In this document: positions 14,537-21,487 of the stretch, piece after piece
Position numbering within the stretch: the stretch's first letter is position 1
Layout: each line of letters starts with the position of its first letter
Made by a program: the position numbers and the translations under genes
Notes under the pieces: model-generated
What the model saw: only the letters and a program-made list of their open reading frames with translations
Told to the model about the DNA's origin: nothing
Database searches by the model: none
Assembly: GCF_009914755.1 (NCBI RefSeq)
Contig: NC_060927.1
Length of the DNA: 64,000 nt
Direction: 5' to 3' (one strand)
From: the human T2T-CHM13v2.0 reference genome, Homo sapiens

Positions 14537-17500
14537 TTTTTTTTTTCTAGTTTTTTTTTTATTATTATACTTTAAGTTCTGGGGTATATGTGCAGAACGT
14601 GCAGTTTTGTTACATAGGTATACACGTCCCATAGTGGTTTGCTGCACCCATCAACCTGTCACCTACATTAGGTATTTCTCCTAACGCTATCCCTCCCCTA
14701 GCCCCCCCAACCCTCCAACAGGCCCTGGTGTGTGATGTTCCCCTCCCTGTGTCCGTGTGTTCTCATTGTTCAACTCCCACTTATGAGTAAGAACACACAG
14801 TGTTTGGTTTTCTGTTCTTATGTTAGTTTGCTGAGAATTATGGTTTCCAGCTTCATCCATGTCCCTGCAAAGGACATGAACTCATCTTTTTTATGGCTGC
14901 ATAGTATTCCATGGTATATATGTGCCACATTTTCTTTATCCAGTCTATCATTGATGGGCACATGGGTTGGTTCCAAGTCTCTGTTATTGTGAATAGTGAT
15001 GCAATAAACATATGTGTCCATGTGTCTGTATAGAATGATTTATAATCCTTTGGGTATATACCCAGTAATGGGATTGCTGGGTCAAATGGTATTTCTAGTT
15101 CTAGATCCTTGAGGAATCGCCACACTGTCTTCCACAATGGTTGAACTAATTTACACTCCCACCAACAGTGTAAAAGCATTCCTATTGCTCCACATCCTTT
15201 CTAGCATCTGTTATTTCCTGACTTTTTAATGATCGCCATTCTAACTGGCGTGAGATGGTATCTCATTGTGGTTTTGATTTGCATTCTCTGATGACCAGTG
15301 ATGATGAGCTTTTTTTCGTATGTTTTTTGGCTGCATAAATGTCTTATTTGAGAAGTGTCTGTTCATATCCTCCACCTACTTTTTGATGGGGTTGTTTTTT
15401 TCTTGTAAATTTGTTTAAGTTCTTTGTAGATTCTGGATACTAGCCCTTTGTCAAATAGATAGATTGCAAAAATTTTCTCCCATTCTGTAGATTACCTGTT
15501 CACTATGATCACAGTTTCTTTTGCTGTGCAGGAGCTCTTTAGTTTAATTAGATCCTCTTTGTCAATTTTGGCTTTTGTTGCCGTTGCTTTTGGAGTTTTA
15601 GACCTGAAGCCTTTGTGTATGCCTATGTCCTGAATGGTACTGCCTAGGTTTTCTTCTAGGATTTTTTATGGTTTCAGGTCTTACGTTTAACTCTTTAATC
15701 CATCTTGAGTTAATTTTTGTATAAGGTGTAAGGAAGAAGCCTAGTTTCAGTTTTCTGCATATGGCTAGCCAGTTTTCCCAACATCATTTATTAAATAAGG
15801 AATCCTTTCCCTATTGTTTGTCTTGGGTTTGTCAAAGGTCAGATGGTTGTAGATGTGTGGTGTATTTCTGAGGGCTCTGTTCTGTTCCATTGGTCTACAT
15901 ATCTGTTTTGGTACCAGTACCATGCTGTTTTGGTTACTGCAGCCTTGTAGTATAGTTTGAATTCAGGTAGTGTGATGACTCCAGCTTTGTTCTTTTTGCT
16001 TAGGATTGTCTTGGCTATGCAGGCTCTTTTTTGGCTCCATAAGAAGTTTAAAGTAGTTTTTTCTAATTCTGTGAAGAAAGCCAATGGTAGCTTGATGGGG
16101 ATAGCATTGAATCTATAAATTACTTTGGGCAGTATGGCCATTTTCATGATATTGAGTCTTCCTATCCATGAGCATGGAATGTTTTTCCATTTGTTTGTGT
16201 CGTCTCTTATTTCCTTGAGCAGTGGCTTGTAGTTCTCCTTGAAGAGGTCCTTCACATCCCTTGTAAGTTGGATTCCTAGGTATTTTATTCTCTTAGTAGC
16301 AATTGTGAATGGGAGTTCACTCATGATTTGGCTCTCTGTTTGTCTGTTATTGGTGTATAAGAATGCTTGTGATTTTTGCACACTGATTTTGTATCCTGAG
16401 ACTTTGCTGAAGTTGCTTATCAGCTTAAGGAGATTTTGGGCTGAGACGATGGCGTTTTCTAAATATACAATCATGTCATCTGCAAACAGAGACAGTTTGA
16501 CTTCCTCTTTTCCTACTTGAATGCCCTTTATTTCTGTCTCTTGCCTGATTGTCATGGCCAGAACTTCCAATACTATGTTGAATAGGAGTTGTGAGAGAGG
16601 GCATCCTTGCCTTTTGCCTTGCCCATCCAGTATTCTATTGGCTGTGGGTTGGTCACAAATAGCTCTTATTATTTTGAGATATGTTCCACCGATACCTAGT
16701 TTATTGAATTTTTAGCATGAAGGGGTGTTGAATTTTGTCAAAGGCCTTTTCTGCATCTATTAGGTTAATCATGTGATTTTTGTCTTTGGTTCTGTTTATG
16801 TGATGGATTACATTTATTTTTTTGCATATGCTGAACCAGCCTTGCATCCCAGGGATGAAGCCAACTTGATTGTGGTGGATAAGCTTTTTGATGTGCTGCT
16901 GGATTCCATTTGCCAGTATTTTATTGAGGATTTTTGCATCGATGTTCATCAGGGATATTGGCCTGAAATTTTCTTTTTTTGTTGTGTCTCTGCCAGGATT
17001 TGGTATCAGGATGATGCTGCCCTCATAAAATGATTTAGGGAGGATTCCCTCTTTTTCTATTGTTTGGAATAGTTTCAGAAGGAGTGGTACCAGCTTCTCT
17101 TTGTACCTCTGGTAGAACTCGGCTGTGAATCTGCCTGGTCCTGGACTTTTTTTGGTTGGTAGGCTATTAATTACTGCCTCAATTTCAGAACTTGTTATTG
17201 GTCTATTCAGGGATTCGACTTCTTCTGGTTTAGACTTGGGAGGGTGTATGTGTCCAGGAATTTATCCATTTCTTCTAGATTTTATCCATTTCTAGTTTAT
17301 TTGCATAGAGGTGTTTATAGTATTCTGATGGTAGTTTGTATTTCTGTGGGATCAGTGGTGATATCCCCTTTATCATTTTTTATTGTGTCTATTTGATTCT
17401 TCTCTCTTTTTTTCTTTATTAGTCTGGCTACCAGTCTATTTTGTTGATCTTTTCAAAAAACCAGCTCCTGGATTCATTGATTTTTTGAAGGGTTTTTCAT

Positions 17501-18114
17501 GTCTCTATCCCCTTCAGTTCTGCTTTGATCTTAGTTATTTCTTGTCTTCTGCTAACTTTTGAATTTGTTTGCTCTTGCTTCTCTAGTTCTTTTAATTGTG
17601 ATGTTAGGTGTCAATTTTAGATCTTTCCTGCTTTCTCTTGTGGGCATTTATAGTGCTATAAATTTCCCTCTACACACTGCTTTAAATGTGTCCCAGAGAT
17701 TCTGGTATGTTGTGTCTTTGTTCTCTCTGGTTTCAAGGAACATCTTTATTTCTGCCTTCATTTAGTTATGTACCCAGTAGTCATTCAGGAGCAGGTTGTT
17801 CAGTTTCCACGTAGTTGTGCGGTTTTGAGTGAGTTTCTTAATCCTGATTTCTAATTTGATTGCACTGTGGTCGGAGAGACTGTTTGTTATGATTTCCATT
17901 CTTTTGCATTTGCTGAGGAGTGTTTTACTCAATTTCAGAAAAAGTACGATGAGGTACTGAGAAGAATGTATATTCTGTTGATTTGGGGTGGAGAGTTCTG
18001 TAGATGTCTATTAAGTCTGCTTGGTCCAGAGCTGAGTTCAAGTCCTGAATATCCTTTTTAATTTTCTGTCTCATCGATCTGTCTAATACTGACCATAAAG
18101 TGTTAAAGTCTCCC
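14537..18114 (-). mobile_element. L1PA7/8-like element, ORF2 (from the EN GDFNT region) to poly(A)
   Basis: Minus-strand ORF2 fragments 14853..15179, 15839..16570, 16701..16949. T-tail at 14537-14560. Confidence 0.9.
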
Positions 18115-19394: not shown

Positions 19395-19672
19395 ATGCCC
19401 ACAAGAGAAAGCAGGAAAGATCTAAAATTGACACCTAACATCACAATTAAAAGAACTAGAGAAGCAAGAGCAAACAAATTCAAAAGTTAGCAGAAGACAA
19501 GAAATAACTAAGATCAAAGCAGAACTGAAGGGGATAGAGACATGAAAAACCCTTCAAAAAATCAATGAATCCAGGAGCTGGTTTTTTGAAAAGATCAACA
19601 AAATAGACTGGTAGCCAGACTAATAAAGAAAAAAAGAGAGAAGAATCAAATAGACACAATAAAAAATGATAA
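19395..19672 (+). repeat. 278-bp inverted copy of 17370-17647 inside (AT)n
   Basis: Read by eye, it is the reverse complement of 17370-17647 with no mismatch and the same length. Confidence 0.92.
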
Positions 19673-21487
19673 TATATATATATGAGAATGGTCAAATAAA
19701 CTACAGTACATTCACACAATTTAGTACTATCCAACTGTTTCATTTTATTATAAAAATGAAGAAAAAAATACCTGTGTAAACTTATGAACAGCTATGGGGA
19801 GATTTCCAGGATATATCATTAAGTGGTAAAAGCAAATATAAATGGATATGTTAATTACCCCAATCTGATTACTATACATTATATGTATCAAAACATCTAT
19901 GTACCTCATGAACATGCACATTTATTGTCAATTAAAGTAAAAGAAAAGCAAATATAGTACGTTACCTTTTATATAAGAAGAGAAAATAAGGAGTATGTTA
20001 TCTTTTATATAAGAGAAAATAAGGAGATATATATATATATATATATATATATCTGCTTACATTTATAAAAAGAAACACAGAAAGAATAAATTTAAAAACT
20101 AAGGAAACTGATCACCTACAAGGGTAAGTGTAGACGGGAACTAGTTAGAAGGGATAGGGGATGGTGACTGACACTACCCTGAAAACAGCTTTTTGTATAA
20201 TTTTGTCAAAAAGAGAGGTAAAAACCTAAAATTGAATACAAATAGAAGCAAATGAACCTAATTATATTTCAAATGAATACAATAACCTTTTAGAAATCTG
20301 CAAACAATCTTGAACTCTACTTAGCAGGTTTATTTTTGCAGTAGTATGGGCGCAGCAATTCCAAAACTATTTTCTATGTATTGCAGGATTGAATATGAAT
20401 AAATATACTTGTGTAATGTTTGGAGACATGCTGCTCAGTGTTAAAGAAGAGTGATACAAATGTGGAATAAGAAGACCAAGATAAAACCAATAGTGTTAAA
20501 TTGGACTTAGAGGTATCACTGTAAATTCATGATTTATAGCTAAATAGACAGAAAACTAGATACTAACATAGATATGTTCATATACATATGACTATAGGTA
20601 TATATATGTATGTGTGCATATATATGTATCTGTTGGTCTAAAAACAATGACTGCCAAGTGCAATGAACGCATCTAATACTTAGAGCTTGGTTTTTAAATA
20701 CCCTTCTTTAATAAAATGAGCTAAGGATTCTTGAAGAAATGGTTGATTCCAGGGAAGAGAAAGTATAATAAGAGCTATGTTGTGCCAGAAATTAAACATT
20801 AAAGAAGATACGTTAAAAGGACACAGGAATTACTTGAAGAAGCTCCCAAATATGTGACAAATAAACATCAAAATAAATAAAAGATAAAACAGTATAATCC
20901 ATTGAAGGAACGTGGCAGACATCACTGTAACCAAATGATGAAAGTTAACAGCACCAATAATTAAACCAAGGTGTCACTGCCTCTTGATATGACACATTGA
21001 GGACTTAACATCACTTTAGGGATATTCCTGCCCAAAATGCATAAGTAAGCTGAGTCTAATAATGAAGAACTTATAAGACAAAGTCAAACTAGAGGGAATT
21101 CTGTAAAATAACTGCCCTGTACTTCTTCAAAACTATAAAAATGTCATAAAAGGCAAAGAAACACTAAGATTAGATTTTAGAAGATTCCAGGTTTTTTTTA
21201 AAAATGAAAAGACATGAAAACTAAATATAATAAGTGATTATGATTAGTTCTTCAATCATCCAAAAAACAAAATAAACATTACTGTGACAACTGGAGAAAT
21301 CTAAATAAGGTCTATGGATTAGATAATAGTGTTAAATCAATGTAATTTCCTGATTGTGATCATTGTACTGTGATTTTATCTGAATGAATGCTCTTTTTCT
21401 TGGGAACCACACACTGAATTATTTAGGGATAAAGGAACATGAAGCATGCAACTTACTTCCTAATAGTTCTTTAAAAATGTATGTTAG

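What the first reader, a model, noticed from the sequence alone, without database searches (positions are those of the whole stretch)
17370..19708. Exact 278-bp inverted copy of a neighbouring L1 segment inside an (AT)n tract, boxed by a 37-bp perfect inverted repeat
Seen: 19395-19672 is the reverse complement of 17370-17647 with no mismatch found by eye. It keeps lesions that differ from the other L1 in this window (gacacctaac versus gacaccctaac; aaaatagactggtagcc versus aaaattgatagactgctagc), so it was copied from this local element and is not an independent retrotransposition. It has no poly(A) and no TSD, and the junctions use only AT/ATA microhomology. The layout is TACTGTAGTTTATTTGACCATTCTC-(AT)25-[insert]-(AT)6-GAGAATGGTCAAATAAACTACAGTA, so 19322-19358 and 19672-19708 are perfect inverted repeats. 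The right arm continues the old L1M host, so the left arm is a second templated copy. Inference: a very recent multi-step template-switch repair (MMBIR/FoSTeS or Pol theta-like) at a cruciform-prone (AT)n, involving a fold-back and then a ~1.75-kb jump. It may be polymorphic or private to this haplotype. It creates a perfect 278-bp duplex in SPICE1 pre-mRNA and an inversion substrate for the interval between the copies.
Basis: partly seen in the sequence, partly recalled or inferred. Interest (0 to 1): 0.8.

Follow-up and report, generated by a model that had tools for sequence, protein, structure and literature searches.

The report
Inverted local DNA patch in AT repeat
A broken or stalled stretch of AT repeats in an intron of the human SPICE1 gene was patched by copying two nearby pieces of the opposite DNA strand, which is a clean example of a known kind of repair scar and not a new mechanism.

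Summary
19395-19672 is the exact reverse complement of 17370-17647 (278 of 278). 19322-19358 and 19672-19708 are an exact 37-nt inverted repeat, made of 25 unique nt plus 12 nt of AT.

In the whole CHM13 genome only these two places carry the 278-mer at 100%; the next best is 95%. The 25-mer occurs nowhere else. 17370-17647 lies inside a contiguous L1, so it is the source. The right arm runs on into old L1M homology and the left arm does not, so the right arm is probably the original (weak statistics).

Read on the + strand, the insert follows the minus strand from 19708 down to 17370, with one skip from the AT tract to 17647. Junctions share 1-2 nt.

Best reading: DNA-templated template switching (FoSTeS/MMBIR or synthesis-dependent end joining) at a hairpin-prone (AT)n.

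Not shown: that it is "very recent" or polymorphic. Identity alone allows up to about 10 My. I had no other human or ape sequence and no raw reads.

Verdict: a real feature, a new member of a known kind, moderate interest.

The parts
16000..18114 (-). Host L1 (its sense strand is the window's minus strand), which contains the donor segment
   Evidence: a single contiguous blastn alignment of window 16000-18107/18114 to three genomic L1 copies (L003, L004, L006) at 88-89% identity. It crosses both 17370 and 17647 without a break.
17370..17647 (+). Donor segment of 278 nt, internal to L1 ORF2-region sequence
   Evidence: exact reverse complement of 19395-19672; embedded in the contiguous L1.
17646..17663 (.). 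18-nt AT-rich palindrome (8-bp stem, 2-nt loop) that abuts the donor's right boundary. It is the landing site of the jump from the AT tract.
   Evidence: the sequence and its reverse complement differ only in the 2 central bases. The 20 nt upstream of the junction match the (AT)n of the copy at 13 of 20 positions.
19281..19293 (+). Left flank: the last recognisable old L1M sequence before the AT tracts
   Evidence: nhmmer hit to L1 profile positions 109-121 (E 3.7, weak), on the same strand as the right-arm hit and 8 profile positions before it.
19293..19315 (.). Imperfect (AT)11 tract to the left of the insert
   Evidence: TRF, period 2, 11 copies, 90% matches.
19311..19322 (+). 12 nt of undecided origin. 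With its neighbouring bases it forms a 7-bp-stem, 3-nt-loop hairpin (19309-19325). It is either snap-back filler or surviving L1M sequence.
   Evidence: no template of 10 nt or more within 3 kb. The self-complementarity of 19309-19325 is visible in the printed 19309-19326 sequence and its reverse complement; the L1 profile scores the two readings alike (1.3 and 1.2 bits); the 25-mer 19309-19333 is unique in the genome.
19322..19346 (+). Left arm: a 25-nt inverted copy of the right arm
   Evidence: the left-arm context gives no hit to the L1 profile.
19347..19396 (.). Perfect (AT)25. Its last AT is shared with the donor (2-nt junction overlap).
19395..19672 (+). 278-nt inverted copy of 17370-17647
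19672..19683 (.). (AT)6. Its first A is shared with the donor (1-nt overlap).
19684..19708 (+). Right arm: 25 nt of the original old L1M
   Evidence: the nhmmer hit 19685-19733 to L1 profile positions 130-178 runs through the outer end of the arm (19708) without a break.
19709..19936 (+). Continuation of the old L1M towards its 3' end
   Evidence: homology continues to 19733; 19842-19936 matches 40 other genomic places at 79-90% identity. In three fetched copies (L015, L017, L018) the aligned upstream sequence carries L1 ORF2-end homology.

Best explanation
This is a repair scar. A break or a stalled replication fork arose in a hairpin-prone AT-dinucleotide tract inside an old L1M, in the SPICE1 intron that spans 2339-22112. 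A 3' end then made a U-turn and copied the opposite DNA strand. It first copied the 25 nt immediately to the right of the tract (19708 to 19684) and then the AT tract itself, which lengthened to (AT)25. It next jumped about 1.65-1.75 kb to an AT-rich palindrome at 17646-17663 and copied 278 nt of a neighbouring L1 (17647 to 17370). Finally it returned to the AT tract and carried on normally. Each switch used only 1-2 nt of AT overlap. The result is an insertion of about 350-362 bp that forms two nested perfect inverted repeats. Shown: the anatomy, the local and unique origin, which 278-mer is the donor, the small overlaps, and the collinearity with the minus strand. Moderately supported: that the right arm is the original one. 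Inferred: that the template was DNA, that the trigger was AT-tract secondary structure, and that all of it happened in one episode. I give about 0.75 to DNA-templated copying in cis, and about two thirds of that to a single episode as opposed to two successive ones. The enzymology (FoSTeS/MMBIR-type fork switching or synthesis-dependent, Pol-theta-type end joining) cannot be read from the sequence. At 278 nt the copy is longer than the typical short Pol-theta insertions I recall, so I lean towards the replicative model.
For: Exact 278-nt and 37-nt inverted repeats, both maximal. The 278-mer is 100% identical only at the two local sites and at most 95% elsewhere (40 of 2930 candidates scored). 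The 25-mer arm is unique to the two local sites at up to 2 mismatches. At least 6 differences are shared by donor and copy against at least 6 of 7 comparators. The donor is internal to a contiguous L1, so the copy is an internal piece with no L1 3' end. Junction overlaps are 2 nt (AT) and 1 nt (A). The landing site is an 18-nt AT-rich palindrome with 13 of 20 matches to (AT)n. The L1M profile hits the left flank at profile positions 109-121 and the right arm at 130-178, on the same strand; removing the insert in silico merges them into one hit at 107-178, and E improves from 0.68 to 0.03. The coordinates show collinearity directly: 19322-19346 is the reverse complement of 19708 to 19684, and 19395-19672 is the reverse complement of 17647 to 17370, in the same order and orientation as on the minus strand. 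As single-stranded DNA, 19280-19725 folds with the 37-bp stem at -50.6 kcal/mol, z = -8.5, and 0 of 100 shuffles fold as well. Mechanistic precedent from papers: the template-switch model and human cases (PMC5453318, search listing and abstract; PMC9435742, passages read, longest event 318 bp); MMBIR (PMC2621351, listing); Pol theta snap-back and templated extension (PMC4912351, listing and abstract); cruciform-forming AT/TA repeats as fragile sites (PMC9890227 and PMC12972899, listings and abstracts).
Against: No outgroup, second haplotype or raw read was available. The empty allele, the order of steps and even the reality of the allele in the population are therefore unverified. The L1M-continuity evidence is weak. 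The individual nhmmer E-values are 0.68 and 3.7, and a third hit that is out of order also has E 3.7. In pairwise tests only 3 of 7 L1 references placed the two flanks collinearly, and shuffled flanks reached the observed score in 7 to 199 of 200 trials (left flank) and 10 to 97 of 200 (right flank). The 12 nt at 19311-19322 have no identified template. A single-break model in which each 3' overhang folds back on its own strand predicts a different order of the two copies (my reasoning), so a fork-based switch or two separate episodes are needed. The insert is equally collinear with the SPICE1 pre-mRNA, so an RNA template is not excluded.
Confidence: 0.7

Rival explanations
1. There were two separate episodes of DNA-templated repair. 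First, a fold-back at the AT tract produced a small palindrome of arm, (AT)n and arm. Later, a second break at the centre of that palindrome was patched when the left 3' overhang folded back on its own resected strand 1.75 kb upstream and copied the L1 piece.
For: Each step is then a simple self-templated fold-back of a 3' overhang (my reasoning from the layout). The palindrome centre is a perfect (AT)25, which would itself be a new fragile site (abstracts of PMC9890227 and PMC12972899). The L1 patch sits asymmetrically in the tract, with 25 repeats on one side and 6 on the other.
Against: It needs two rare events at one site. Both copies are perfect, so no age difference between them is visible. 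The collinearity of both pieces with the minus strand would then be a coincidence, at about 1 in 4 by orientation and order.
Confidence: 0.25
2. The patch was RNA-templated. A piece of nascent SPICE1 pre-mRNA, which has exactly the sense of the insert, was reverse-transcribed with one internal template jump by L1 ORF2p, Pol theta or another reverse transcriptase, and was used to repair a break in the AT tract. This would be a local class 2 templated sequence insertion.
For: On the + strand the insert equals the minus-strand (pre-mRNA) sequence, in transcript order 19708 to 19684, AT tract, 17647 to 17370 (coordinates; the hub annotation puts SPICE1 on the minus strand with both pieces in one intron). 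It has no TSD and no poly(A), and it has microhomology, which are the features of class 2 TSIPs, proposed to come from reverse-transcribed RNA (PMC5110952, passages read). Pol theta can reverse transcribe RNA (PMC8195485, listing and abstract).
Against: Nothing in the sequence requires RNA. The skipped interval has no splice-site-like ends (read: it ends ...TATAA|AT). Described TSIP templates are distant genomic regions, and the close proximity of both templates here is the hallmark of DNA template switching. A DNA U-turn predicts the same collinearity.
Confidence: 0.1
3. The feature is not a germline human allele. It is either an assembly artefact at a low-complexity AT tract or a mutation that arose in the CHM13 cell line.
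For: AT-dinucleotide tracts are hard for sequencing chemistry (recalled). No raw reads or second assembly could be inspected here.
Against: The structure is only 2.3 kb and lies within unique flanks, so single long reads should span it (inference). An artefact would not be expected to produce a precise three-junction structure that has 1-2 nt overlaps and leaves the flanking L1M intact. NCBI's repeat masking covers 19339-19691 as ordinary sequence (hub annotation).
Confidence: 0.05
4. It is a mobile-element insertion or a gene conversion. The possibilities are an independent L1 retrotransposition, a small DNA transposon bounded by 25-nt terminal inverted repeats, or gene conversion of an older inverted L1 fragment.
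For: The inserted piece is L1 sequence and it is boxed by perfect inverted repeats.
Against: There is no poly(A), no L1 3' end and no direct TSD. The copy is identical to the neighbour and at most 95% identical to every other scored copy. The 'TIR' 25-mer occurs nowhere else in 3.1 Gb and is itself L1M-derived. No L1 homology extends beyond the 278 nt at the copy, which argues against a conversion tract within an older fragment.
Confidence: 0.02

Closest known systems
Short-range template-switch mutations (four-point model of Loytynoja and Goldman; PMC5453318, PMC9435742)
   Same: The inserted sequence is the reverse complement of nearby sequence. It creates perfect inverted repeats and hairpins, the flanks are intact, and the proposed cause is a replication-linked strand switch and return.
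   Different: Those events are one contiguous copied fragment. In one human data set the longest was 318 bp, and one of that paper's filters allowed at most 250 bp of distance (passages). Here there are two fragments separated by a skip of about 1.65-1.75 kb, and the event sits in low-complexity AT sequence, which those screens filtered out.
FoSTeS/MMBIR complex rearrangements (PMC2621351; iterative template switches, PMC11293582)
   Same: There are several serial template switches, microhomology of a few nt at each junction, templates that lie close together, inverted segments, and no loss of flanking sequence.
   Different: The described cases are mostly CNVs of kilobase to megabase size at disease loci. 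This one is an intronic insertion of about 0.36 kb with no known phenotype.
Pol theta-mediated end joining and SD-MMEJ templated insertions with snap-back synthesis (PMC4912351, PMC5728401, PMC2943611)
   Same: It shows copying in cis from flanking sequence, including fold-back on the same strand, tiny microhomologies, and a possible hairpin-shaped filler at 19309-19325.
   Different: From what I recall, such insertions are usually a few to a few tens of nt and are templated within tens of nt of the break. Here 278 nt were copied from 1.75 kb away.
Class 2 templated sequence insertion polymorphisms (PMC5110952)
   Same: A patch was copied, not excised, from an intact donor. It has no TSD and no poly(A), its junctions show microhomology, and it lies in a transcribed region.
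   Different: TSIP donors are described as distant genomic regions and are thought to be reverse-transcribed RNA. Here both donors lie within 2.3 kb on the same molecule, and polymorphism has not been shown.
Fold-back inverted duplications and ODIRA (PMC3907307, PMC10766183)
   Same: A U-turn at a short inverted repeat or self-complementary sequence gives an inverted copy around a short spacer.
   Different: Those are large events that change chromosome ends or amplify segments. Here the fold-back copy is 25 nt and the chromosome continues normally.
Cruciform-forming AT/TA repeats and palindromic AT-rich repeats as fragile sites (PMC9890227, PMC12972899)
   Same: The event is centred on an (AT)n tract. 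The product carries a perfect (AT)25 flanked by 25-nt inverted arms, which is a strong hairpin or cruciform former.
   Different: The interval 19322-19708 as a whole is not a palindrome, because 278 nt of asymmetric L1 lie between the arms. No breakage has been shown at this site.

Membership tests
L1 retrotransposition (target-primed reverse transcription) | 3' poly(A) tail and inclusion of the L1 3' end | tested here: not met
   The copy ends in ...GATAA followed by (AT)6. It is an internal piece of an L1 that continues on both sides at the donor.
L1 retrotransposition (target-primed reverse transcription) | Direct target-site duplication flanking the insert | tested here: not met
   The unique flanks are inverted, not direct. 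Only AT microsatellite lies on both sides, and it is uninformative.
L1 retrotransposition (target-primed reverse transcription) | The copy derives from an active master, so it should not share a neighbour's private changes | tested here: not met
   It is 100% identical to the neighbour and at most 95% identical to the other scored genomic copies. It shares at least 6 differences with the neighbour.
DNA transposon or MITE with terminal inverted repeats | A multi-copy family with the same terminal inverted repeats | tested here: not met
   The 25-mer arm with up to 2 mismatches occurs only at the two local sites in 3.1 Gb.
Short-range template-switch mutation (four-point model) | The novel sequence is the reverse complement of nearby sequence, with intact flanks | tested here: met
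   One search shows both pieces are exact reverse complements. Searches show the L1M flanks are collinear across the insert.
Short-range template-switch mutation (four-point model) | A single contiguous copied fragment, short range (tens to a few hundred bp) | tested here: not met
   There are two fragments with a skip from the AT tract to 17647, and the donor lies 1.75 kb away. For comparison see the passages.
FoSTeS/MMBIR-type serial template switching | Two or more template switches with microhomology at the junctions, and templates in close proximity | tested here: met
   There are three junctions with overlaps of 1-2 nt, and all templates lie within 2.3 kb.
FoSTeS/MMBIR-type serial template switching | Origin at a stalled or collapsed replication fork | not testable with these tools
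   The sequence cannot show dependence on replication.
Class 2 templated sequence insertion polymorphism | No TSD, no poly(A), NHEJ-like junctions, and an intact donor | tested here: met
   The definition was read.
Class 2 templated sequence insertion polymorphism | The template is a distant genomic region, and the insertion is polymorphic among people | tested here: not met
   The donor lies 1.75 kb away on the same strand set. Polymorphism could not be tested here.
Palindromic AT-rich repeat (PATRR) | A near-perfect AT-rich palindrome of several hundred bp (definition recalled) | tested here: not met
   Only the 37-nt ends of 19322-19708 are self-complementary. The 278-nt core pairs with 17370-17647, not with itself.

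The most novel reading that the evidence does not exclude
The whole insert is a cDNA-like patch copied from the nascent SPICE1 pre-mRNA at the site of a break within the same intron. That would make it a natural, fixed human example of transcript-RNA-templated double-strand-break repair in cis. Its sense-strand collinearity (arm, AU tract, skip, L1 piece) would then be the footprint of a reverse transcriptase that jumped once along the RNA.
Probability: 0.1. Interest if true: 0.7.

Novelty: new member of a known kind. Interest (0 to 1): 0.35.

Why it matters
This is an unusually legible scar. Every base of a roughly 0.36-kb insertion, except 12 nt, can be assigned to a template within 2.3 kb, and all junctions are resolved to 1-2 nt. 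It extends the known picture of short-range template switching to a two-fragment event with a jump of about 1.7 kb, seeded in the AT-repeat sequence that published screens filter out. It also creates three testable by-products. The first is a perfect 278-bp double-stranded RNA arm pair in an intron of an expressed gene, which is a possible ADAR substrate. The second is a pair of 278-bp inverted repeats that could flip the 1.7 kb between them. The third is a new (AT)25 flanked by perfect 25-nt arms, which should itself be fragile. None of this changes a coding sequence, and no exon lies between the arms. As biology it is an instructive example and not a surprise.

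Tried and rejected
(1) I searched the whole genome for a better donor and found none: the next best match is 95%.

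(2) I searched the whole genome for the 25-mer arm and for the 25-mer 19309-19333. Each occurs only locally, so this is not a transposon family.

(3) I searched the genome with 19684-19845 to find close L1M relatives for a stronger continuity test. Only the query itself was found.

(4) Pairwise alignment of the two flanks to 7 L1 references gave weak results. Three of 7 placed them collinearly, and shuffles often scored as well. A 7-sequence profile did somewhat better.

(5) I looked for a template for the 12 nt at 19311-19322. Nothing of 10 nt or more lies within 3 kb; only 9-mers do, at about chance level.

(6) I tested whether 19315-19322 is ancestral L1M or filler. This is undecided, at 1.3 against 1.2 bits.

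(7) An Rfam scan of 16000-21000 gave 0 matches.

(8) A literature search for this locus, using SPICE1 with inverted, insertion and intron, listed nothing relevant among the 8 papers shown. Supplementary variant tables of population long-read studies were not searched.

(10) I considered and rejected a single-break model in which each 3' overhang folds back on its own strand. It predicts the L1 copy to the left of the left arm, which is not the observed order.

Full report
**1. What is in the sequence**

Window 19395-19672 is the exact reverse complement of 17370-17647, 278 of 278 bases. The match cannot be extended by a single base on either side. 19322-19358 and 19672-19708 are an exact 37-nt inverted repeat, made of a unique 25-nt arm plus 12 nt of AT repeat, and this match is also maximal.

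Tandem Repeats Finder reports a perfect (AT)25 at 19347-19396 and an imperfect (AT)11 at 19293-19315.

The last AT of the (AT)25 and the first A of the (AT)6 are also present at the donor's edges, so the two junctions of the L1 piece have 2 nt and 1 nt of overlap.

**2. It is not chance, and the origin is local**

The assembly that holds the window (3.1 Gb, 24 contigs) could be searched. Of 2930 first-look candidates, 40 were scored. Two are 100% identical, and these are the two local places. The other 38 are 93-95% identical. The only other copy of this L1 segment in the window, at 7917-8194, is 87% identical.

I aligned the copy with the six best genomic copies and the window copy. Donor and copy are identical to each other and share at least 6 differences (5 substitutions and 1 deletion) against at least 6 of the 7 comparators. 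The comparators differ from the copy at 15-16 columns (genomic copies) and 36 columns (window copy) of 285.

The 4-nt deletion is shared by 4 of 7 comparators and the 1-nt deletion by 1 of 7. The conclusion of local origin stands on overall identity, not on those two marks.

The 25-nt arm, allowing 2 mismatches, occurs only at its two local sites in the whole assembly, and the reversed control pattern gave 0 hits. Among 18 inverted-repeat pairs of at least 150 nt within 10 kb in the window, this is the only perfect one. The others, which are ordinary pairs of dispersed repeats, are 75-95% complementary.

**3. Which copy is the donor, and which arm is the original**

Window 16000-18107/18114 aligns as one uninterrupted block to three genomic L1 copies at 88-89% identity. 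17370-17647 is therefore an internal part of a resident L1 and is the donor. The piece at 19395-19672 has no L1 homology beyond its 278 nt. The same result shows that the 1.7 kb between the two arms has not been inverted in this assembly.

For the short arms I built a profile from 7 L1 copies that cover the relevant part of ORF2's end: 4 from the window and 3 old L1M copies fetched through their 3' ends.
- Its best hit in 19100-20000 is the right arm plus the next 25 nt (19685-19733, profile positions 130-178, E 0.68).
- The second hit is the left flank (19281-19293, profile positions 109-121, E 3.7). It lies on the same strand, 8 profile positions upstream.
- Removing the insert inside a script, with a short AT spacer, merges the two into one hit at profile 107-178, and E improves to 0.03.
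- The left arm's own context gives no hit.
- Downstream, 19842-19936 matches 40 other genomic places at 79-90%.

I read this as follows. An old L1M runs through the site on the + strand, the right arm is part of it, and the left arm is the copy.

The statistics are weak and I say so. A third hit that is out of order has the same E of 3.7. In pairwise tests only 3 of 7 references placed the flanks collinearly, and shuffled flanks often scored as well.

**4. The insert follows the opposite strand with one skip**

From the coordinates:
- 19322-19346 is the reverse complement of 19708 to 19684.
- The AT tract is its own complement.
- 19395-19672 is the reverse complement of 17647 to 17370.

Read left to right, the insert therefore follows the minus strand from 19708 downwards. 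It passes through the AT tract and then skips to 17647 and continues to 17370. This amounts to one U-turn, one jump and one return, and it is a simpler description than two unrelated template choices.

The landing site of the jump is notable. 17646-17663 is an 18-nt AT-rich palindrome (8-bp stem, 2-nt loop) that abuts the donor's edge, and the 20 nt there match the AT tract at 13 of 20 positions. That gives a reason why an AT-ended 3' terminus would anneal there.

**5. The 12 nt that remain unexplained**

19311-19322 lies between the imperfect left AT tract and the left arm. No template of 10 nt or more exists within 3 kb. With neighbouring bases it forms a 7-bp-stem, 3-nt-loop hairpin at 19309-19325, as expected from snap-back synthesis.

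Its last 8 nt also resemble the L1 sequence expected at that position, and the profile cannot tell the two readings apart (1.3 and 1.2 bits).

If these 12 nt are ancestral, the insert is about 350 bp with no filler, and the first junction has a TA overlap. It could alternatively be a 3-nt overlap with a mismatched terminal base, because the arms extend to 41 nt with one mismatch (pair I3).

**6. Mechanism**

Best reading, at 0.7-0.75 for the class: a break or a stalled fork in a hairpin-prone AT tract, followed by DNA-templated copying in cis with serial template switches at 1-2 nt overlaps. These are the FoSTeS/MMBIR family of models (PMC2621351, search listing) or synthesis-dependent end joining of the Pol theta type (PMC4912351, PMC5728401 and PMC2943611, listings and abstracts).

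A coherent single-episode version, which is my inference, runs as follows. A rightward leading strand stalls at the AT hairpin. It switches to the single-stranded lagging template just ahead of it (the right arm) and copies back through the AT tract. It jumps to the AT-rich palindrome 1.7 kb behind, copies 278 nt and returns.

A simple one-break model with each overhang folding on itself predicts the wrong order of the pieces. The main variant is therefore two successive fold-back events, palindrome first and L1 patch second (0.25).

An RNA-templated patch from the SPICE1 pre-mRNA fits the same collinearity and the junction features of class 2 templated sequence insertions (PMC5110952, passages read; PMC8195485, abstract). 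Nothing requires it, however, and the close proximity of the templates argues for DNA (0.1).

An artefact or a cell-line-only mutation could not be tested (0.05). Retrotransposition, a transposon and gene conversion fail their defining tests.

**7. Age**

There are zero differences in 303 bp (278 + 25). Using a recalled human rate of about 0.5e-9 per bp per year on two copies, this gives a 95% upper bound near 10 My.

The donor's at least 6 private differences, accumulated since the L1 inserted and all carried by the copy, say only that the copy is much younger than the L1. Gene conversion between the arms could also keep them identical. Human-specific, shared with African apes, polymorphic and private all remain open.

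**8. Consequences**

Both 278-nt arms lie in the SPICE1 intron between exons 2199-2338 and 22113-22231 (hub annotation), and no exon lies between them. In a minimum-free-energy fold of the minus-strand RNA over 17300-19760, 276 of 278 arm positions pair in register, and the duplex energy of the two arms is -488 kcal/mol. The "perfect duplex in the pre-mRNA" is thus a sound prediction, but it is not evidence that the duplex forms or is edited in vivo.

As single-stranded DNA, 19280-19725 folds with the 37-bp stem and an internal AT hairpin at -50.6 kcal/mol, z = -8.5, and 0 of 100 shuffles fold as well. No Rfam family matches 16000-21000.

**9. Comparison with what is known**

The event works like the template-switch mutations of Loytynoja and Goldman (PMC5453318; PMC9435742). 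It fails two of their defining limits, a single contiguous fragment and short range. In the passages I read, the longest event was 318 bp, one filter allowed 250 bp of distance, and low-complexity sequence was removed.

It meets the sequence-level criteria of FoSTeS/MMBIR: several switches, microhomology and nearby templates.

It shares junction features with class 2 TSIPs but not their distant donors. It is not a PATRR.

I found nothing in print about this locus (8 papers listed, none relevant). Supplementary variant tables of population long-read studies, where this insertion might be listed, were not examined.

**10. Verdict**

The mechanism class is correctly guessed, the recency is overstated, and one supporting detail is wrong. 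It is a new, very legible member of a known kind of mutation. Interest is 0.35.

Noticed in passing
window 10368-11050 and 12072-12754: A 683-nt inverted repeat at 95% complementarity with only 1021 nt between the arms, which is the longest inverted pair in the window. The arms look like two L1 3' portions facing each other: the L1 motif searched hits at 10687 on the + strand and at 12411 on the - strand. It could be two insertions or an inversion/duplication. It also lies in a SPICE1 intron.
   Followed up: no
window 19941-20052: A 36-nt unit repeated about 2.5 times (81-86% matches) lies directly against a perfect (AT)13 at 20027-20052, about 330 bp to the right of the finding. It may be a second, older duplication seeded at an AT tract in the same old L1M.
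   Followed up: partly
window 17646-17663: An 18-nt AT-rich palindrome lies exactly at the donor's edge. It is included in the parts list as the probable landing site, but whether such small palindromes generally mark template-switch landing sites was not examined.
   Followed up: partly
window 19684-19842 compared with loci L015, L017 and L018: In three other L1M copies the distance from the ORF2-end motif to the 3'-end anchor is about 420 nt. Here it is about 160 nt, so this L1M carries an internal deletion or deletions of about 260 nt between 19733 and 19842. This is unrelated to the insert.
   Followed up: no
window 19206-19270: This stretch, just left of the L1M flank, matches more than a dozen other places in the window at 76-90%. 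By its sequence it is the A-rich 3' end of an Alu (my reading). So the L1M was already interrupted by an Alu about 30 nt to the left of the AT tract.
   Followed up: no
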